Source: Naegleria gruberi
Lineage: Eukaryota
DNA: 64,000 nucleotides
NCBI GenBank assembly: GCA_000004985.1
Contig: GG738854.1
Reading direction: 5' to 3' (one strand)
Under the pieces are notes generated by a model. The model did no database searches, was not told the origin of the DNA, and saw nothing but the letters and a program-made list of their open reading frames with translations. The position numbers were made by a program, and so were the translations under genes. Shown here piece by piece: positions 2,612 to 43,934 of this stretch; the stretch's first letter is position 1; each line of letters starts with the position of its first letter.

Positions 2612-2858
2612 ATCTTATAATTATTGAACATTTGACAGAGTATTGACTTTTCAAAAATTTGGGGATGGCATCACTTTGCTTGCTGTTTGAATTTTCTGTG
2701 TAGATCAGAACACAAAATATGTTTCACACTTAATTTGGATAATTGTTGGATGGTTTGTTTTCCAGAAGGACGAGAAATAATGAGAGAAACCTACACAGAA
2801 GAGGATAAAAGAGATTTATTCTAACATATGGTTTTCATAAATTGAAAGCAACAAAATT

Positions 2859-2948
2859 TGATGCGAGTGGGATTTGAACCCACGCCCTTGCGGAACACGG
2901 TATTAGAATACCTTAACGTGTCGTCTTAGACCACTCGACCATCGCACC
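2859..2948 (-). tRNA. tRNA-Leu (anticodon most likely AAG), class II with long variable arm and a putative 10-nt intron at position 37/38
   Basis: Reverse complement reads GGTGCGATGGTCGAGTGGTCTAAGACG..ACACG TTAAGG[tattctaata]C CGTGT..GTGGGTTCAAATCCCAC TCGCATC A. Acceptor stem 7 bp with one G-U pair, Leu-type D-loop GAGTGGTCTAA, T-loop TTCAAAT, 11-nt variable arm. Confidence 0.7.
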
Positions 2949-3321
2949 ATCGAATATTTCAAACAAAATGGTTAAGACAACAGTTAAAAGAGAATTTCAA
3001 AGAGAAAAGCAAGTTGAAAGAACCATGTTAAGACTACAGTTTGGTTAATGGGTTCGAGGATTTTACAATCAATCTGTTCACTAATGACTTTTCTTGAATG
3101 ATATAGATTATTCTGAATTCTGTTTGATTAATAATAATTAATTTAATTATTGAAAGTAAAATTTTGATGGAACTATCTGTTGCTCAATGATGTCGGTTAG
3201 CACAATTAGGTGCCTTTTCAAAATATTATCGATACTATTCGAAAGGAAAATAATCCATAATATTTGTGTGTGAAAACAACAAGCTCCATCTCTTCTCTTT
3301 GAATTCATTCAAATGATTCAA

Positions 3322-22131: not shown

Positions 22132-24366
22132 TTATTTTCGTTCAAGTGAAAATTGAACAAATAAGGCATGCAATATCTGCTCTGGTAGAAATGAAACTTT
22201 TTCGCAATCATTGAAAAGTTCCTTGCAATGTTCAATTCCAAATAATAACAATTCTCTGTAAAAATCTTTGAAGGAATCTAAGTGTAGATAATTTTTACAT
22301 GATATTGCAATTTTGTAATAATTTGCAGTTGTCAGAACGAAATTATTCTTGCAGAATTCGAGTAGGTTGCTTATTTCATGTCTCAATGCCAAATCAATTA
22401 ATTCAATCTGTTTTGTTGCATCAAATTTAAATGGTATTCCATAACAAGATTTGATAACAATTTCCAATAATTCCAAATCCTCTGAAGGGTCTGGAACAAA
22501 AACACCATCATCACTGAGATCACTAAACGATGATCCACTATCAAAGAGTGCATCAAAGAATATGCTAGAAGAGCTCAAAACAGTTTTGTGGCAATACAAA
22601 TACTTGTCTAGCCCTAGTTTCACTTTGATGTCACCTGTTTTCTCGTCATTGTATAGGTCAACGAGGCCTCTTGGAGGAATTTCAACTTTTTCATCAAGGT
22701 TGATGATTGTCTTTTGAGGTATTGCCATTTTTTGAATAATCGAAACACTATTCTTAAGAACAATTGGACTATTTCCGAGTGGAACGCTATTTTCAGTGGA
22801 TTTTAAACGAAGTGCAGCATATTCCACAAAGTATTCATGTATGTATTCAAAAATCTTGTTTTGTAAGGATAGGTCTTCATTGCAGAATTTGAGATGTGTT
22901 TCAATTTGTTCCCATTGAGAGGTGAATCTTTCAACTGTAATTGACTCTACTAATTTCTTCACTAAATTCTTTTTCAAGTTGATAAATTCACCATTTTCAA
23001 ACAATCCCAATAACGATAAAACATTCAATATCTCATGTTCCATGAATTCCAAATTATCATTTTGATATATGAGTGAGTTAATCAATCGTTGAATTATTTC
23101 TCTTTGGCATAAATTAATCTTACTAAGAAGGTATTCATTTTGCAAAATAATTTTGCAAAATTGGGGTGATTTCTTTTCGATTAATGGGATAAATCCATAA
23201 ATATCCAAAATATTGATTTGATCTCTGGCTTGTTTCTTCAGTTTTGGAATGTGTGTAGAAGTAATTCCAATATGTGGGTAACGTGAGATATCGAAAAATG
23301 AATCACCACTATTTCCTTCTCTTCCATTTCCTGCAATTGTTACAATATTTCCATTTTGTAATATCTTTCTAATTCTTTGATTACTTTGATCGGCAATATA
23401 AACTTCATTTGATGAGACAAAAACACTTGAAGGCCGATTGAGCATTGTATCAATTGCAGGCACATTATCATCACCATACCCTTCCTTTCCATTTCCTGCA
23501 ATTGTTGCAATATTTCCATTTGCTAAAATCTTTCTAATTCTATGGTTGCCAGTGTCTGCAATATAGACTTCACCATTTGATGAAACAAAAACACTTTTTG
23601 GAAAATTGAGAGAAGTATTTGTTGCCAATATGTTATCCTCATGAAATCCCACGAGTCCATTTCCTGCAATTGTTACAATATTTCCATTTCTCAATATTTT
23701 TCTAATTCTATGGTTGCCAGTGTCAGCAATATAAACTTCATTATTTGATGTCACGAATACACTTGAAGGCCGATTGAGCATTGCATTAACTGCAGGCACA
23801 TTATCATCACCATACCCTTCCTTTCCATTTCCTGCAATGGTTACAATATTTCCATTCGACTCAATCTTTCTAATTTTGTTACGGTTTTGATCTGCAATAT
23901 AAACTTCATCATTTAATGTCACGAAAACACCTGAAGGACGATTAAGCATTGCATTAATCGCAAGTCTATTATATACTCCTTTACCATTTACATTATTTCC
24001 AGCAATTGTTATAATATTTCCATTTGTTAAAATCTTTCTAATTCGATTATTAAAATAATCAGCAATATAAACTTCATTATATGGAGAAACAAACACTCCG
24101 ATTGGATAATTCAGCATGGCATTAGTTGCAGGACCATTATCACCACTAAATCCATTTTGTCCATTTCCTGCAATTGTCACCATTTTTCCATTGGTTAATA
24201 CCTTCCGAATTTTATGATTGCCAATATCAGCAATGTACACTTCGCCATTCGATGAAACAAAAACACTTGAAGGACCTTTAAAGTTTGCATTGGTCGCTAG
24301 TAACAGTTGCATTTTCAGTTTTTTAAGCCTTGATTTTTTATCTTCAGTTGTTGCTCTTCTTTTCAT
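22132..24366 (-). CDS. NHL-repeat beta-propeller protein fused to a C-terminal BTB/POZ (and BACK-like) region
   Basis: At least six NHL repeats, e.g. NGEVYIADIGNHKIRKV..TIAGNG. C-terminal BTB-like YLYCHKTVLSSSSIFFDALFDSG. ORF starts at TTG 24411; first ATG is at 24366 (AAAAAAAATGAAAAGA). Confidence 0.65.
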   Translation of the reverse strand: MKRRATTEDKKSRLKKLKMQLLLATNANFKGPSSVFVSSNGEVYIADIGNHKIRKVLTNGKMVTIAGNGQNGFSGDNGPATNAMLNYPIGVFVSPYNEVYIADYFNNRIRKILTNGNIITIAGNNVNGKGVYNRLAINAMLNRPSGVFVTLNDEVYIADQNRNKIRKIESNGNIVTIAGNGKEGYGDDNVPAVNAMLNRPSSVFVTSNNEVYIADTGNHRIRKILRNGNIVTIAGNGLVGFHEDNILATNTSLNFPKSVFVSSNGEVYIADTGNHRIRKILANGNIATIAGNGKEGYGDDNVPAIDTMLNRPSSVFVSSNEVYIADQSNQRIRKILQNGNIVTIAGNGREGNSGDSFFDISRYPHIGITSTHIPKLKKQARDQINILDIYGFIPLIEKKSPQFCKIILQNEYLLSKINLCQREIIQRLINSLIYQNDNLEFMEHEILNVLSLLGLFENGEFINLKKNLVKKLVESITVERFTSQWEQIETHLKFCNEDLSLQNKIFEYIHEYFVEYAALRLKSTENSVPLGNSPIVLKNSVSIIQKMAIPQKTIINLDEKVEIPPRGLVDLYNDEKTGDIKVKLGLDKYLYCHKTVLSSSSIFFDALFDSGSSFSDLSDDGVFVPDPSEDLELLEIVIKSCYGIPFKFDATKQIELIDLALRHEISNLLEFCKNNFVLTTANYYKIAISCKNYLHLDSFKDFYRELLLFGIEHCKELFNDCEKVSFLPEQILHALFVQFSLERK

Positions 24367-24621
24367 TTTTTTTGAAAATAGACAAAAAAGCAGTGTTTCT
24401 AATCTAGTCAATATTACAATGGAGAATTGTACATCAAGGTTTCTCTTAATGATTAATTGATCAACAAGATTCTTCAGATAGTCATATTTTATTTAAAAAT
24501 ATTACATATTACCTCCAATGAAAACCAAAAGGAATCGTGTTGTAAGGAGAATGTATTATTTCCATTTATAGATGATTATCCTGAAATCCACTTTATAAAA
24601 TCAATTGACAAATGATGCTCA

Positions 24622-25744
24622 TCAAAAGACCCAATGCTTATCAACATAAAAGAATGAAACATTTGGATGAGTCGATTGAACAAATTTCAAATATTCACTC
24701 TTCAAACTCCAATAACTTTCTTTATCCAATGGAAGAAACAAAACACAATAATTCTCCCTCGATAATGGATCATCTTTGTGTTCTCTAAAATAACCATCAT
24801 CTCTAAAGAAAACAGTTGATTGAGGACCTTTCTTCCAACTAAAGAAGAATAGTTCCTTCTCCTTTGAAATTGGGTTGAGTAAACGAGAGAGGCAATTTCT
24901 TAAAAGTTCTGAATGCTCGTTGTTGTTTCCAGTTATGGAAATGTCAGAGTTTAGCTCGTTGGTGACCCTATCAAATAAGTTATGAGATAATTCTTGTGGA
25001 TCGTTGTCAGAAGCATTTGAAACTCTTACAATATTTTTTTACAAGTCTAAAAGGCTTGGCTTGGGGACAACAAAAACGGGACATGAAGAAAATTGTTGGA
25101 GGACATTTCTCAAGATGTTGTTGCAATCACCAATAGTGAAATCCTGTGTTGGAAAGCAACCAAAAAGTGAAGAGAGGCACTTCATTGTTGAAGTAGTTTG
25201 GTTTTTTTCAAGAAGTTTGATGAAATTAAAGTTTATTTTGATGAAAGTGTAACGTCTTCTTTCATGGCGCCAACTAATGTAACATGTCTACGTATACAGT
25301 TTCAATCCTCTCTACAAAATACACGACAACGTCACTCGGATTATCACCATCTTCCACAACATTAAACAATGACAAGAATTTTTGAATTTCCTCTTTCAAA
25401 TGAGTTGGTTGACCTAAAATTCGAATCGAAATATTTTGGTCATGTTGATGTTTCACAATCTTGTGAATGGTTTGATGAATATGATCGAAATCTTTTTCTT
25501 TCTGAACGAAAAGAAAGTAATTTTCTGGAATGTTGCTGAATATGGCTTCTTTCTTTCCAAATGAAACAAAAACAACTTTTTCTTCTATTCGAAACTGTAT
25601 CTGAATCTAAAATGAAAGAAACCTACGGTTTTTCTTAAAGCATTCCTCTAAAGTTTCCAAAGATGGTCGGCATTCAGTCTTTTGGGTTGTGTTTCTACTC
25701 CACAAACCACGAAAATTCTGAAGAAAGGTCTGAAAGATCTGCAT
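24622..25744 (-). CDS. Unresolved multi-exon gene or pseudogene, minus strand: several open segments separated by stops
   Basis: Minus-strand segments MQIFQTFLQNFRGLWSRN.., IQIQFRIEEKVVFVSFGKKEAIF..VDMLH*, MKCLSSLFGCFPTQDF.., and ..FFFSWKKGPQSTVFFRDDGYFREHKDDPL..YVDKHWVF*. Candidate short-intron boundaries exist, but phases could not be reconciled by eye. Confidence 0.25.
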
Positions 25745-25782: not shown

Positions 25783-25930
25783 TGATTCTAATAGCAAACG
25801 TGATGATTTCACGTTTCTTGTTCTTTCATTAGATTCGAATAGAATGGAAACGTGAGAGGTTGCATAGAAATCATGTAGTTAGAATCACGATTCTTTTTCT
25901 ACCTCACACGTTTCCACTAGATTCGAATAA
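25783..25930. repeat. Imperfect inverted repeat / hairpin with flanking 12-nt direct repeat in the divergent promoter between the 24622..25744(-) and 25982..26668(+) genes
   Basis: Arms GGAAACGTGAGAGGT and ACCTCACACGTTTCC. Outer arms GTGATTCTAA and TTAGAATCAC. Direct repeat TAGATTCGAATA occurs twice. Confidence 0.4.
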
Positions 25931-26116
25931 CTTAAAAAAAATGGTCTAGTATTGTCATAGACACAGACGCTATTATTAATATTGGAAATCTTTACCAATG
26001 GCTCGAAAAAAAATCATCACTCAGTAAGTTTCTTCCACATTCGTATTTCAATTTTATCAGAACAAAAACCTTTGGTCATTATTACAAACCATGAAAAAAT
26101 CCCCAGCTCAACAAGA

Positions 26117-26668
26117 ATGGAATTAAAGGAATCTCTGTCTAACCTAATCCATGAAAATAGAATTTTCTTTTTTGAAAATCATATCAACTTGGAAACTGAC
26201 ATTCCATCAGAAAAGAACAAAATCATTGACTTGATGTTACAAAAAATTGAGGTTGAAAACATGAAATATAATCCTAACAAAAAGTCTACCAACATTCTTG
26301 TGCTTGGACCTCAACACTCTGGAAAATCTTCAACAATCAACACTTTGGGTAAATATTTCAATAGACGAATCCAAGTTGCAATTTGTGATGTTGGACGAAA
26401 GGCAGATGTTGGCACAGTTCACTATGAAAAATTTCATCTCGGTTCCTCTAATGGTCATGAATATCACATCTTTGATACTGCTGGTAAACCATTCGAAAAG
26501 GGAATGGATGGAAATGATGTGAATCAAATTCAAAAGTTAATGCATGGATTGCCAACAGGTGTAAACTTGTCACTTTCTGAATGGATGAATTCAGAAATTG
26601 TTACAGAAAATGCAGTTGGATTTGTGTTCCTTGTTGTCAGTGCTGAGGTTCTTACAAAGCGTAGATAG
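26117..26668 (+). CDS. Small P-loop GTPase-like protein (G1 GPQHSGKSS, G3 DTAG)
   Basis: ORF 25982..26668. Plausible ATG at 26117 (MELKESLSNL..). NILVLGPQHSGKSSTINTLG Walker A motif. HIFDTAGKPFE switch II. Confidence 0.5.
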   Translation: MELKESLSNLIHENRIFFFENHINLETDIPSEKNKIIDLMLQKIEVENMKYNPNKKSTNILVLGPQHSGKSSTINTLGKYFNRRIQVAICDVGRKADVGTVHYEKFHLGSSNGHEYHIFDTAGKPFEKGMDGNDVNQIQKLMHGLPTGVNLSLSEWMNSEIVTENAVGFVFLVVSAEVLTKRR

Positions 26669-26798
26669 ATTAGTTATTAAATGAATAAATATGTCATTAG
26701 CAACAGTATTGACCCAACTTTGAAACAAAAGCATCATTCCTTAAAACTGTAATGAAATACACATCGAAAAAGTTGTCGAAACGTGAAAATAAATACCA

Positions 26799-27475
26799 GT
26801 GAGTAGATATTCTAAACGTGACATCACGTTTCAATTTGGTTCAACAAAAAATGTCTGTAACAACTCTCCCAAACCTTCCTCTCAAAATTCTCGGTTGGTG
26901 ATCTTGGTAAATCATCCTTCATCAACACTCTCCTCAAATTTTTCAATCCAAATATTATGGTTGAAACATGTGATGTTGGAAGAAAGGCAGAAGTTGGTAC
27001 CTTACTTTACGAAAGTGTTCCAGTTTCGTCTGCCAACTTGTTGTTGTTTGATTCTGCTGGTAAACCATTCGAAAATCCAGACGACTTGAATACCTTAAAA
27101 TTAATCTTGCAAGGAATCAAGACCGGAACTAATTTAGTGGAAAATTACTTGACAAACAAGATTGACCTCGATAATAGGATTGATGGCGTTATTTTTGTTT
27201 GTAGAGCTTGTGAATGGAATTCTGTTTCTTTACAAAAATTTGTCAAATTCCAAAATGTTGTTAAAGAAACAGATATAAAGGGGCTTCCTTTCAATCCAAT
27301 GATTGTTTTAACACATTTCACAGAGTCAATGTCAGAGAAGCAATTTGTGGATAAAGTTACAAATGCTGTTCCATTTGCATTCTTGGATAATCCAAAAGAT
27401 CTTTCCAAAGATTTGACACCACAAGCTATGGAAGCATGCAAAAGAATTTCAAGACAATTCAAAATATGTAAATAA
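26799..27475 (+). pseudogene. Degenerate tandem duplicate of the P-loop GTPase-like gene (P-loop lysine lost, internal frameshift)
   Basis: Two ORFs in different frames, 26799..27089 and 26957..27475. The first has VNHPSSTLSSNFS in place of GPQHSGKSSTINTLGKYF. The second (VETCDVGRKAEVGTLLYES..FDSAGKPFE) is paralogous to VAICDVGRKADVGTVHYEK..FDTAGKPFE of the upstream copy. Confidence 0.5.
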
Positions 27476-27508
27476 TTAATCTCTAAAGCTTCAACAATGG
27501 TTTAAGGC

Positions 27509-27581
27509 AAAATGAATCGCCCACCGTGGGGGTCGAACCCACGACCACAAGGTTAAGAGCCTTGCGCTCTACCGACTGAGC
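27509..27581 (-). tRNA. tRNA-Lys (anticodon CTT)
   Basis: Reverse complement GCCCGTCTAGCTCAGTCGGTAGAGCGCAAGGCTCTTAACCTTGTGGTCGTGGGTTCGACCCCCACGGTGGGCG. Canonical cloverleaf. Anticodon loop CTCTTAA. Confidence 0.9.
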
Positions 27582-27937
27582 TAGACGGGCCACGTATCAC
27601 GTAAAAATCATGTGAAACTCATCCCTTAGTTACCATCAATATTTAATGCAGTTCTTAATATTTTCACTCAGTCTTCAAAAGTGCAGAAACGACAAGCACA
27701 TTTGTCTGATAAATTGATCTTCATCAATGACAAGGTTACCATTAGAGTCAACTTCAGTTTTGTACAATTCGATACCAGAAATTCTGCCATCCTTATACTC
27801 AAGTTTGAAAGGAGAGAATATTGTAAAATTAATACAATTTTCAAGATTGAACGGGTTACATATTTATGTTGTACTGTTACTTAGGGAGCGACTGCCAAAA
27901 GTTGAACATTGAATAGTTTAAATTATTACAAATTTAT

Positions 27938-28999
<1,062 letters not shown>

Positions 29000-39213: not shown

Positions 39214-39284
39214 GGGGGCGAGGGGGAATCGAACCCCCGGCCACAGCTTTGGAGGCTGCGATGTTACCATTACACCACCGCCCC
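39214..39284 (-). tRNA. tRNA-Trp (anticodon CCA)
   Basis: Reverse complement GGGGCGGTGGTGTAATGGTAACATCGCAGCCTCCAAAGCTGTGGCCGGGGGTTCGATTCCCCCTCGCCCC. Anticodon loop CTCCAAA. T-loop TTCGATT. Confidence 0.8.
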
Positions 39285-43861: not shown

Positions 43862-43934
43862 GGGGATGTAGCTCACATGGTAGAGCGCTTCTTTAGCATG
43901 GAAGAGGTACGGGGATCGATACCCCGCATCTCCA
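43862..43934 (+). tRNA. tRNA-Ala (anticodon AGC)
   Basis: GGGGATGTAGCTCACATGGTAGAGCGCTTCTTTAGCATGGAAGAGGTACGGGGATCGATACCCCGCATCTCCA. G3:U70 Ala identity pair present. Anticodon loop TTAGCAT. Confidence 0.85.

What the first reader, a model, noticed from the sequence alone, without database searches (positions are those of the whole stretch)
25982..27581. Tandem P-loop GTPase-like genes; the second copy has lost its P-loop and is followed by tRNA-Lys
Copy 1 has an intact Walker A (GPQHSGKSS) and DTAG. Copy 2, 130 bp downstream, reads VNHPSSTLSS in place of the GK-containing loop and switches frame before the conserved C(D)VGRKA(D/E)VGT..FD(T/S)AGKPFE block. The rest of copy 2 stays open and conserved for 170 aa. 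That suggests a recent decay, or a P-loop-independent function.
Basis: seen in the sequence. Interest (0 to 1): 0.5.

Follow-up and report, generated by a model that had tools for sequence, protein, structure and literature searches.

The report
Circularly permuted GTPase beside its normal twin
In this Naegleria gruberi locus the first of two neighbouring GTPase-like genes has its two halves in swapped order and the second has the normal order; the reported loss of the P-loop in the second gene is a reading-frame mistake, although an 8-base deletion just upstream does cut that gene off from its start codon.

Summary
The window is Naegleria gruberi nuclear DNA. Two paralogous small GTPase-like genes sit in tandem on the + strand, followed by tRNA-Lys(CUU) on the minus strand.

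The claim that copy 2 reads VNHPSSTLSS instead of the GK loop is wrong. That string is the out-of-frame reading of GGT AAA TCA TCC..., which is GKSSFINTLL. GKSS is retained, and it is in frame with CDVGRKAEVGT.

The real defect lies just upstream, at 26893-26905. It is a net 8-nt loss relative to a 98-99% identical metagenome contig and to a second N. gruberi paralog. It shortens Walker A from GDPHSGKS to GDLGKS and uncouples it from the ATG at 26851.

Copy 1 is not a plain intact GTPase. Its G4-G5 module (PLVIITNHEK...NRIFFFENH) lies N-terminal to G1-G2-G3, and the protein ends right after strand beta4. A profile of 50 canonical-order relatives matches canonical proteins collinearly. It matches copy 1 and its orthologs in two swapped pieces.

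The permuted gene is conserved in at least four other contigs (dN/dS 0.14). It needs a small 5' exon and a 37-nt intron. In this window that exon has lost its ATG.

Scores to the YlqF model are far below cut-off, so this looks like an independent circular permutation within a septin/IRG/Toc34-like family.

The parts
25796..25816 (.). Palindrome AAACGTGA-N5-TCACGTTT upstream of the permuted gene. A further AAACGTGA lies at 25848..25855.
   Evidence: 6 of the 7 AAACGTGA sites in 64 kb lie in the two upstream regions of this gene pair; 1.5 are expected by chance. The site is identical in L002.
25936..26023 (+). Remnant of exon 1 of the permuted gene (..SIVIDTDAIINIGNLYQWLEKKSSL, the helix alpha3 region). 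The frame is open but has no in-frame ATG in this window.
   Evidence: It is homologous to L002 1038..1143 (MGLFEFFFGPSIVIDTDAVINIGNLYQWLEKKSSL) and to L006 603..717. It aligns to canonical profile positions 133-150 across the splice junction.
25941..25949 (+). Out-of-frame ATG GTC TAG at the site of a 23-nt gap relative to L002. This is the lesion that removes the start codon of the permuted gene.
   Evidence: Alignment of the window with L002; sequence read directly.
26024..26060 (+). Inferred 37-nt phase-1 intron (GTAAGT...ATCAG) joining exon 1 to exon 2.
   Evidence: It joins the two conserved frames exactly. A 34-nt GTAAGT..AG intron sits at the same position and phase in L006. The segment is 94.6% identical to L002, against 99.5% for exon 2. 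No transcript data.
26061..26668 (+). Exon 2 of the circularly permuted GTPase gene. It holds the G4-G5 module, a linker, G1-G2-G3 and strand beta4, then the stop codon. The annotated model XP_002680186 (183 aa) starts at ATG 26117.
26069..26098 (+). Strand beta5 with the G4 position: PLVIITNHEK. TNHE stands where the family has T[KH]xD.
   Evidence: The profile of canonical C-terminal halves scores 30.8 bits here; the best of 1000 shuffles scores 12.4. Coordinates.
26156..26182 (+). NRIFFFENH, the beta6/G5-region motif. The family consensus is nrvF.i.NY.
26306..26329 (+). Walker A / G1 of the permuted gene: GPQHSGKS.
26474..26485 (+). G3 of the permuted gene: DTAG.
26618..26644 (+). Strand beta4 (GFVFLVVSA). 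It is the last conserved element, and the protein ends 7 residues later.
   Evidence: Orthologs end at the same place.
26814..26831 (.). Palindrome AAACGTGA-CA-TCACGTTT, 20 nt upstream of the copy 2 ATG. A further AAACGTGA lies at 26779..26786.
26851..26901 (+). Stranded 5' end of the canonical-order gene (copy 2): MSVTTLPNLPLKILGW*.
   Evidence: L002 and P0004 continue in frame as ..KILVVGDPHSGKSS.
26893..26905 (+). Lesion inside Walker A of copy 2. It is a net 8-nt loss relative to L002, giving a frameshift and a loop two residues shorter.
   Evidence: alignment.
26861..27475 (+). Open frame of copy 2 (canonical order). Its motifs are GDLGKSS at 26897..26917, CDVGRKAEVGT at 26969..27001, DSAG at 27050..27061, beta4 NRIDGVIFVCRA at 27173..27208, and the G4 position PMIVLTHFTE at 27296..27325. 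The annotated model XP_002680187 (172 aa) starts at ATG 26957.
   Evidence: The intact forms P0002 and P0004 give a single collinear profile match.
27518..27590 (-). tRNA-Lys(CUU). A neighbour on the opposite strand, with no sign of a functional link.
   Evidence: It is 100% identical in L002.

Best explanation
The locus holds a pair of paralogous small GTPase genes. They belong to an unnamed eukaryotic TRAFAC family whose nearest solved relatives are septins, IRG proteins and Toc34/GIMAP.

Gene 1 (25936..26668: two exons and a 37-nt intron) encodes one complete G domain in circularly permuted order. The order is alpha3, beta5(G4), alpha4, beta6(G5), alpha5, linker, beta1(G1), alpha1, G2, beta3(G3), alpha2, beta4, then stop. 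Gene 2 (26851..27475) has the normal G1-to-G5 order.

The permuted gene most likely arose in the heterolobosean lineage by in-frame tandem duplication of a canonical copy, followed by loss of the outer halves (inferred). Since then it has been kept by purifying selection as a working gene (shown for its orthologs).

In this assembly both genes carry small 5' lesions. Gene 1 has lost the ATG of exon 1 through a 23-nt gap. Gene 2 has a net 8-nt loss inside Walker A. These are either young null alleles of this haplotype or strain, or local sequence errors. The coding sequence beyond each lesion is still intact.

Function is inferred only by analogy with the septin/IRG/Toc34 class. On that analogy these are nucleotide-dependent, dimerising, probably membrane-associated switches. 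The two genes may be co-regulated through the shared AAACGTGA palindromes.

The reported replacement of the GK loop does not exist. It is an out-of-frame reading.
For: Organism and annotation:
- XP_002680186 and XP_002680187, Naegleria gruberi.

Frame reading:
-.

Lesion in copy 2, and the intact state elsewhere:
-.

Circular permutation:
- A profile of the C-terminal halves of 48 canonical relatives (no Naegleria-type sequences in it) scores 30.8 bits, E 1e-11, on the N-terminal part of copy 1. The best of 1000 shuffles scores 12.4 bits.
- A full-domain profile of 50 canonical relatives matches P0002 and P0004 as one collinear stretch (positions 1-213).
- The same profile matches the window, L002, L006 and P0010 proteins as two stretches in swapped order: profile 133-218 on residues about 19-104, and profile 2-125 on residues about 111-235.
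- Of the 106 family proteins scanned, the only ones with this swapped order were the two N. gruberi-type copy 1 proteins (P0003, P0007) and P0010.

Conservation:
- Orthologs occur in independent contigs L002, L006, L007 and L004/L005.
- L006 against L007 gives dN/dS 0.14. The G4-G5 module gives 0.30 and the G1-G3 module 0.09.
- Exon 2 is 99.5% identical to L002, against about 96% for non-coding DNA (Fisher p = 4e-5).

Intron:
- Same position and phase in L002 and L006.
- The conserved G4 strand has no in-frame ATG without splicing.

Family class:
-.

Not a YlqF member:
- TIGR03596 scores 14-23 bits against a cut-off of 208.

Origin:
- In a neighbour-joining tree of the G1-G3 halves, the permuted clade has 90% bootstrap support and sits next to the canonical Naegleria clade.
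- Multi-G-domain tandem proteins exist in the family.
Against: - There is no transcript or protein evidence. The 34-37 nt introns are very short and are only inferred.
- The AlphaFold model of the permuted protein is mediocre (pLDDT 67, pTM 0.70; the G4 module region has low confidence). Fold searches match only the G1-G3 half, weakly. The permuted 3D topology is therefore not shown structurally.
- The sister relation of the permuted and canonical Naegleria clades has only 52% bootstrap support, and P0010 is unplaced.
- The G4 aspartate is missing in both window genes (TNHE and THFT), so guanine specificity is doubtful.
- In this window the permuted gene has no usable start for its G4 strand.
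- The second N. gruberi copy is annotated from a still later Met (135 aa). The gene may therefore be decaying in strain NEG-M.
- Whether the lesions are real cannot be decided without reads.
Confidence: 0.8

Rival explanations
1. One reading: copy 2 has lost its GK-containing P-loop and changes frame before CDVGRKA. On this view it is a recently decayed pseudogene or has a P-loop-independent role, while copy 1 is an ordinary intact GTPase.
For: A frame break does exist between the ATG (26851) and the rest of copy 2, and the downstream 204 codons are open and conserved.
Against: GKSS is present at 26906..26917, in frame with CDVGRKAEVGT. VNHPSSTLSS is the overlapping frame of the same bases, and it is also present as an ORF in the intact L002 gene. 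Copy 1 lacks G4/G5 after G3 and carries them upstream. Translation from ATG 26957 would lack beta1, the P-loop and alpha1.
Confidence: 0.1
2. The two 5' lesions (the 23-nt gap at 25949/50 and the net 8-nt loss at 26893-26905) are errors of the reference assembly. On this view both genes are intact in the organism.
For: The Walker A lesion parses as three small gaps (2, 4 and 2 nt) within 13 bases, a pattern that poor base-calling can give. Both ORFs are otherwise flawless and under constraint. A near-identical contig and a second N. gruberi paralog are intact at the Walker A site.
Against: Across 1.6 kb of otherwise clean sequence, the only indels inside coding DNA hit the start codon of one gene and the Walker A of the other. 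The 22/23-nt gap is flanked by a TGG microhomology, as real deletions often are. The second-locus copy of gene 1 is also annotated from a later Met. No read data were available.
Confidence: 0.35
3. Copy 1 is not a functional permuted gene. On this view it is two pseudogene fragments that happen to be in frame: the C-terminal half of a decayed upstream copy and the N-terminal two-thirds of a truncated copy.
For: The locus is a tandem array. In this window the 5' exon has no ATG. A partial fragment copy exists elsewhere (L008).
Against: The same architecture, linker (LQKIEVENMKYNPNKK against LQQLETDNAKYSPDNKE) and end point are kept at 55%, 52% and 30% identity in L006, L007 and P0010. dN/dS is 0.14 overall and below 0.3 in each module. 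Each domain module is present exactly once.
Confidence: 0.07
4. Copy 1 is a divergent member of the known circularly permuted YlqF/YawG (YRG) family of ribosome-biogenesis GTPases. JGI named P0010 'ribosome biogenesis GTPase A'.
For: It has the same motif order, G4-G5-G1-G2-G3. It gives a weak collinear match to TIGR03596 across the G4-to-G1 junction (L006 protein residues 36-137, 23.2 bits).
Against: The scores are 14-23 bits against a cut-off of 208. The canonical-order family profile gives 139-141 bits in total. Family-specific motifs (QHSGKSS.IN, CDVGRKA.VGT, DTAGKPFE) are shared with the neighbouring canonical gene. No RsgA or YlqF Pfam hit appears for the window protein.
Confidence: 0.04

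Closest known systems
YlqF/RbgA-YawG (YRG) family of circularly permuted GTPases (RbgA, RsgA/YjeQ, YqeH, Nug1, Nog2, Lsg1)
   Same: The motif order is G4-G5-G1-G2-G3, so the cut falls between G3/beta4 and G4. The YlqF model gives a weak collinear match across the junction.
   Different: The window gene is not a member: it scores 14-23 bits against a cut-off of 208. It is a small single-domain protein of about 235 aa with no RNA-binding or zinc-finger extension. Its sequence relatives are canonical-order septin/IRG/Toc34-like proteins. The permutation is apparently young and confined to Naegleria-type heteroloboseans.
cpRAS domain (Elias and Novotny 2008, PMC2430557)
   Same: It is a second, independently evolved circular permutation of a G domain in eukaryotes, and it is also present in Naegleria gruberi.
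   Different: cpRAS has the order G3-G4-G5-G1-G2, derives from Ras-family GTPases, and is embedded in large multidomain proteins. Here G3 (DTAG) follows G1, and the parent family is septin/IRG-like.
Septins, IRG (p47) GTPases and Toc34/AIG1-GIMAP ('paraseptin'-type TRAFAC GTPases)
   Same: These are the best solved-structure matches of the family profile: septin-9 and septin-3 at E 1e-10 to 5e-9, Irgb10 at 4e-8, Toc34 at 4e-6. Toc33/34 and GIMAP4 are also the top fold matches of the model. The family's G4 is T[KH]xD, like the TKxD or AKAD of these classes. Many relatives start with MG, which looks like an N-myristoylation signal.
   Different: No window protein reaches the Pfam cut-off for Septin, IIGP or AIG1. 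There is no septin unique element and there are no IRG helical domains. The Naegleria members have lost the G4 aspartate.
Intact paralogs and orthologs: N. gruberi XP_002671740 (P0004, 212 aa) and metagenome proteins P0002 and P0008
   Same: They are 95% (P0004) and 47-48% (P0002) identical to copy 2, with the same length class and motifs.
   Different: They have a full Walker A (GDPHSGKS or GDQHEGKS) in frame with the start codon. The window copy reads GDLGKS and is out of frame with its ATG.

Membership tests
P-loop GTPase (G domain, TRAFAC class) | G1 Walker A, GxxxxGK[ST] | tested here: met
   Copy 1 has GPQHSGKS at 26306..26329. Copy 2 has only GDLGKS, two residues short and off frame from its ATG. 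The intact relatives read GDPHSGKS.
P-loop GTPase (G domain, TRAFAC class) | G3, DxxG | tested here: met
   DTAG at 26474..26485 and DSAG at 27050..27061. D and G are invariant in the family alignment.
P-loop GTPase (G domain, TRAFAC class) | G4, [NT]KxD, which confers guanine specificity | tested here: not met
   Copy 1 has TNHE and copy 2 has THFT at the aligned position. The wider family has T[KH]xD. Nucleotide specificity is therefore open.
Pfam MMR_HSR1 (PF01926) | Score at or above the gathering cut-off of 21.9 bits | tested here: not met
   Copy 1 scores 18.0 bits and the copy 2 frame 13.8 bits. The intact paralog P0004 scores 24.4 bits, and 23 of 29 relatives match.
AIG1/GIMAP (PF04548), Septin (PF00735), IIGP (PF05049) | Score at or above the Pfam gathering cut-off | tested here: not met
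   AIG1 scores 14.4-14.7 bits against a cut-off of 27. There is no septin or IIGP hit for the window proteins. Relatives give only weak hits.
Circularly permuted protein (general definition) | Each module of the parent domain is present once, in swapped order relative to collinear homologs | tested here: met
   profile 133-218 matches first and profile 2-125 second in the window, L002, L006 and P0010 proteins. The canonical proteins give one collinear match. Shuffle control.
Circularly permuted protein (general definition) | The permuted chain folds into the same 3D domain | tested here: inconclusive
YlqF/RbgA cpGTPase (NCBIfam TIGR03596) | Score at or above the cut-off of 208.2 bits | tested here: not met
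   14.0, 23.2 and 17.5 bits for the L002, L006 and P0010 proteins.
YlqF/RbgA cpGTPase (NCBIfam TIGR03596) | Motif order G4-G5-G1-G2-G3 | tested here: met
cpRAS | Motif order G3-G4-G5-G1-G2 | tested here: not met
   DTAG (G3) lies 56 residues after the P-loop, near the C-terminus. The definition of cpRAS is from PMC2430557.
Expressed, spliced gene | A transcript joining exon 1 to exon 2 with removal of 26024..26060 | not testable with these tools
   Only comparative evidence is available: same intron position and phase in L006, and frame restoration.

The most novel reading that the evidence does not exclude
This is a third, independent and evolutionarily young circular permutation of the GTPase domain, after the YRG family and cpRAS. 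It arose inside a septin/IRG/Toc34-like family in the Naegleria lineage. In N. gruberi it is still next to its canonical-order sister gene, under a shared promoter motif. That would make it a natural snapshot of permutation by duplication. It is also a possible case of a permuted and a canonical G domain working as a heterodimeric pair.
Probability: 0.6. Interest if true: 0.7.

Novelty: new variant of a known kind. Interest (0 to 1): 0.6.

Why it matters
Circular permutation of the G domain has been described for only two groups: the ancient YRG family and cpRAS (PMC2430557). It was once argued that G4-G5-G1-G2-G3 exists only in YRG.

A recent, lineage-restricted permutation with the same cut point in an unrelated GTPase family would show that this cut is repeatedly accessible. 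Because the permuted and canonical genes are close paralogs in one organism, it would also give a matched pair for testing how permutation changes nucleotide binding, dimerisation and regulation.

It also corrects two public gene models. XP_002680186 lacks its 5' exon and G4 strand. XP_002680187 starts after the P-loop.

For the original finding, the practical lesson is that the 'lost P-loop' was a frame error.

Tried and rejected
1. A third, decayed 'copy 0' upstream (25000-25540). I saw faint similarities by eye (SQSCEW, LGLGTTKTGHEE). tblastn gave nothing there, and in L002 that DNA is an open 180-codon frame on the minus strand. Rejected.

2. An alternative (ciliate) genetic code to read through copy 1's TAG. 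Rejected, because long ORFs throughout the window are uninterrupted under the standard code and the organism is Naegleria.

3. Splicing ATG 25998 (MARKKIITQ) to the main ORF. The frames do not fit with the 26024..26060 intron. The correct upstream frame is the one homologous to L002 and L006 exon 1.

4. An intron after beta4 that would supply a missing C-terminal half of copy 1. There is no homologous sequence in 26669..26850 in any frame, and orthologs end at the same point.

5. Structure prediction. P0002 with 3 sequences gave pLDDT 48 and was unusable. The permuted protein gave pLDDT 67, and the fold searches were weak.

7. Two metagenome scans for further loci found nothing.

8. DNA of the second N. 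gruberi locus could not be fetched. The exact-protein look-ups for P0001, P0003, P0004 and P0006 were 'not on record'.

9. The sigma-70 and terminator scan is not meaningful for a eukaryote. It only re-found the palindromes.
Full report
**Source and setting**

The window is Naegleria gruberi nuclear DNA. It is 34% G+C and densely packed with ORFs. The two ORFs of the finding are 100% identical to XP_002680186 (NAEGRDRAFT_64427, 183 aa) and XP_002680187 (NAEGRDRAFT_64428, 172 aa). Both are annotated 'predicted protein' and lie on a 665-kb scaffold.

The neighbours are an NHL-repeat/BTB gene (22132..24411, minus strand), tRNA-Lys(CUU) (27518..27590, minus strand) and a polyubiquitin gene (27938..28984, minus strand).

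**The observation**

Two homologous P-loop ORFs do lie in tandem. They share 44% identity over 108 residues, with E about 4e-21. Copy 1 has GPQHSGKS and DTAG.

The key claim about copy 2 is a frame error.

In that second frame the same bases read FSVGDLGKSSFINTLLKFFNPNIMVETCDVGRKAEVGT. GK(S)S is therefore retained, and it is collinear with the rest of the protein. The out-of-frame VNHPSSTLSS ORF is also present over the intact gene of a related contig, which shows that it is only a shadow frame.

**What is really wrong with copy 2**

The start codon at 26851 opens MSVTTLPNLPLKILGW*, ending at 26901. This is one frame away from GDLGKSS (26897..26917).

Two independent comparators show the ancestral state:
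- Contig L002 comes from an ENA metagenome assembly. It is 94% identical to the window overall and 98-99% identical in the genes. At this site it reads ATG..CTC GTG GTT GGT GAT CCA CAT TCA GGT AAA, which is MSVTTLPNLPLKILVVGDPHSGKSS, in one open frame of 200 codons from the ATG.
- A second N. gruberi protein, P0004 (XP_002671740, 212 aa, on another scaffold), reads MSLTTLPNLPLKILVVGDPHSGKSS.

Relative to these, the window lacks 2 nt after 26892/3 and a net 6 nt around 26903-26905. The net loss of 8 nt causes the frameshift and shortens Walker A by two residues.

Downstream of the lesion the gene is clean. It is 98.7% identical to L002, against about 96% for the flanking non-coding DNA (Fisher p = 0.005). 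This is therefore either a very young null allele or a local error in the assembly.

The only in-frame ATG left is 26957, the annotated start. Translation from there would remove strand beta1, the P-loop and helix alpha1, so a 'P-loop-independent' folded protein is unlikely (inference).

**What copy 1 is**

Copy 1 stops seven residues after strand beta4 (GFVFLVVSA-EVLTKRR*). No G4/G5 sequence follows in any frame before copy 2.

Its ORF is, however, open for about 90 codons upstream of the P-loop. That stretch reads KPLVIITNHEKIPSSTRMELKESLSNLIHENRIFFFENHINLETDIPSEKNKIIDLMLQKI. This is the pattern found at the C-terminal end of canonical relatives, for example P0013: PFVVVTNIDKL...IVHKNRVFCITNP....

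I tested this in two ways.

1. I built a profile from the C-terminal halves of 48 canonical-order relatives, with no Naegleria-type sequences included.
   - It scores 30.8 bits (E 1e-11 for one sequence) on the N-terminal part of copy 1.
   - The best of 1000 shuffled controls scores 12.4 bits.

2. I built a full-domain profile (223 positions) from 50 canonical relatives.
   - It matches the canonical proteins P0002 and P0004 as one collinear stretch (positions 1-213).
   - It matches the copy 1 type proteins as two stretches in swapped order: profile 133-218 on residues about 19-104 (35-37 bits), then profile 2-125 on residues about 111-235 (105 bits).
   - This holds for the window, L002, L006 and P0010.

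Each module occurs once. That is a circular permutation with motif order G4-G5-G1-G2-G3.

**Gene model of the permuted gene**

The conserved G4 strand has no in-frame ATG upstream of it in the window, in L002 or in L006. In another frame just upstream lies a conserved small exon:
- L002: MGLFEFFFGPSIVIDTDAVINIGNLYQWLEKKSSL
- L006: MGGSSSKPAPRTPQRKFSVETETVLGTSNLYNWLETKM

In both contigs this exon ends at a GTAAGT donor. A 37-nt intron (window and L002) or a 34-nt intron (L006), ending in AG, joins it in phase 1 to the main ORF at the same position.

The spliced products are 237 aa (L002) and 244 aa (L006). Their alignment to the canonical profile runs across the junction, through the alpha3-to-beta5 region. 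The intron diverges more from L002 than the exons do: 94.6% identical, against 98.6% and 99.5%. The intron remains inferred, because no transcripts were available and it is unusually short.

In the window a 23-nt gap relative to L002 at 25949/50 leaves ATG GTC TAG out of frame. The exon 1 frame is then open from 25936 but has no ATG. So this assembly's permuted gene also has a 5' lesion. The public model, which starts at Met 26117, lacks the G4 strand.

**Is the permuted gene functional?**

Orthologs with the same architecture, linker and end point occur in independent contigs:
- L006 (P0009), 55% identical
- L007 (P0106), 52% identical
- L004 and L005 (P0010, 254 aa, intronless), 30% identical; JGI named this one 'ribosome biogenesis GTPase A', presumably because of the motif order

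L006 against L007 gives dN/dS 0.14. The G4-G5 module gives 0.30 and the G1-G3 module 0.09. Between the window and L006 or L007, synonymous sites are saturated while pN is about 0.32-0.35. Exon 2 differs from L002 at 3 of 608 sites, against 30 of 827 non-coding sites (p = 4e-5).

This excludes two accidentally fused pseudogene fragments. N. gruberi has the pair twice. P0006 and P0004 are adjacent genes on another scaffold, about 95% identical to the window pair.

In the species of L001 and L006 the two gene types lie on different contigs and are not adjacent.

**Family**

A profile search of 1.84 billion representatives found 99 relatives at E <= 1e-3. They are almost all eukaryotic and uncharacterised. 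They include diplonemids (for example a Diplonema papillatum 'GTP-binding protein'), MMETSP transcripts, and a two-domain shark protein.

They share these features:
- N(I/V)LV.G.QH.GKS..IN
- a conserved G2 threonine
- D(T)(A/P)G
- N.ID.V..V..A
- G4 as T[KH]xD
- often an N-terminal MG

Pfam gives only generic MMR_HSR1 hits, in 23 of 29 members, plus weak Dynamin_N, RsgA_GTPase, AIG1, Septin and IIGP hits.

The family profile's best solved-structure matches are Nug1-type GTPases (over G1-G3 only), septin-9 and septin-3 (septin-3 aligning through G4), Irgb10, Irga6 and Toc34. The weak fold matches of the model are Toc33/34, GIMAP4, septins and IRGs.

I therefore place the family in the septin/IRG/Toc34-type part of the TRAFAC class. 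It is not a member of any named family.

**Relation to known permuted GTPases**

The literature describes two groups: YRG (G4-G5-G1-G2-G3) and cpRAS (G3-G4-G5-G1-G2) (PMC2430557).

The present genes have the YRG order, but they score only 14-23 bits on the YlqF model, against a cut-off of 208. They score 139-141 bits on the canonical-order family profile. They also share idiosyncratic motifs (CDVGRKA.VGT, DTAGKPFE) with the neighbouring canonical gene.

In a neighbour-joining tree of the G1-G3 halves:
- the permuted genes of the window, the second NEG-M locus, L006 and L007 form a clade with 90% bootstrap support;
- that clade sits beside the canonical Naegleria clade (72%);
- the sister relation itself has only 52% support, and P0010 is unstable.

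Proteins with two to five tandem G domains exist in the family. They are the kind of intermediate that permutation by duplication requires.

The most likely history is an in-frame tandem duplication in a heterolobosean ancestor, followed by loss of the outer halves. This is an inference.

**Function**

Nothing is shown. By analogy with septin, IRG, Toc34 and GIMAP proteins, these would be nucleotide-dependent dimerising GTPases, often membrane-bound. The L006 protein starts MGGSSSK, which looks like an N-myristoylation signal.

Both window genes lack the G4 aspartate (TNHE, THFT), so guanine specificity is uncertain.

The octamer AAACGTGA occurs seven times in the 64 kb, against 1.5 expected. 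Six of the seven sites lie in the upstream regions of these two genes, including one palindromic pair per gene (25796..25816 and 26814..26831). They are conserved in L002 but absent from the more distant loci. This suggests either a duplicated promoter or co-regulation.

The tRNA-Lys is simply a neighbour on the opposite strand.

**Verdict**

The finding as written is half wrong. There is no loss of GK, and the frame shift was placed in the wrong spot. It does point at a real and more interesting object: a conserved, apparently independently evolved circularly permuted G domain lying next to its canonical-order paralog. Both genes carry small 5' lesions in this particular assembly, and whether those lesions are real needs read data.

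Noticed in passing
window 25796-25855 and 26779-26831; L002 879-964 and 1901-1953: AAACGTGA / TCACGTTT octamers cluster upstream of both genes, with one palindromic pair per gene. Six of the 7 sites in 64 kb lie here, against 1.5 expected. They are conserved in L002 but absent from the distant orthologous loci. This could be a shared regulatory element or a duplicated promoter.
   Followed up: partly
window 25846-25925: A larger inverted repeat, GGAAACGTGAGAGGT ... ACCTCACACGTTTCC, is flanked by direct repeats TAGATTCGAATA. It resembles a small hairpin or MITE-like element in the upstream region of the permuted gene. L002 has a 14-nt insertion inside it.
   Followed up: no
window 24676-25456 (minus strand); L002 1-540: L002 has an uninterrupted 180-codon minus-strand frame here. 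The window matches it in two blocks (24676-25027 and 25291 onward), separated by about 263 nt that L002 lacks. This could be an unannotated gene with an intron, or an insertion in the window.
   Followed up: partly
window 27595 onward; L002 2815-3958: Synteny with L002 ends right after tRNA-Lys. L002 continues with a second tRNA-like sequence (about 3172-3250) and a DEK_C/PC4-domain gene. The window continues with polyubiquitin. A rearrangement breakpoint may sit at the tRNA gene.
   Followed up: no
L008 (ENA ERZ929261, same sample as L002) 862-1089: This is a partial extra copy of the permuted gene. It starts within G2/G3 (..HLGSSNGHEYHIFDTAGKSFEKG..) and has a different C-terminal tail after SAEVLT. 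It is probably a fragmentary duplicate or pseudogene.
   Followed up: partly
L007 171-707: The ortholog P0106 continues after beta4 with a hydrophobic tail (VEDPLVLLLLLIAAILKQFPNK) that looks like a tail anchor. P0010 ends in CLIQ, which is CaaX-like. The C-termini of the permuted proteins are variable.
   Followed up: no
window 27938-28984 (minus strand): A polyubiquitin gene with four identical-length ubiquitin repeats. The listed ORF carries an upstream extension that is probably not translated.
   Followed up: no
window 2858-2949 (minus strand): ARAGORN reports a 92-nt tRNA of undetermined type with a two-base 'anticodon'. It may be an intron-containing tRNA or a false call. tRNA-Trp (39214-39284) and tRNA-Ala (43862-43934) are also present.
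   Followed up: no
public gene models XP_002680186 / XP_002680187 (window 26117-26668 and 26957-27475): Both N. gruberi models are truncated at the 5' end relative to the homologous full-length genes. The first misses exon 1 and the G4 strand. The second starts after the P-loop.
   Followed up: yes
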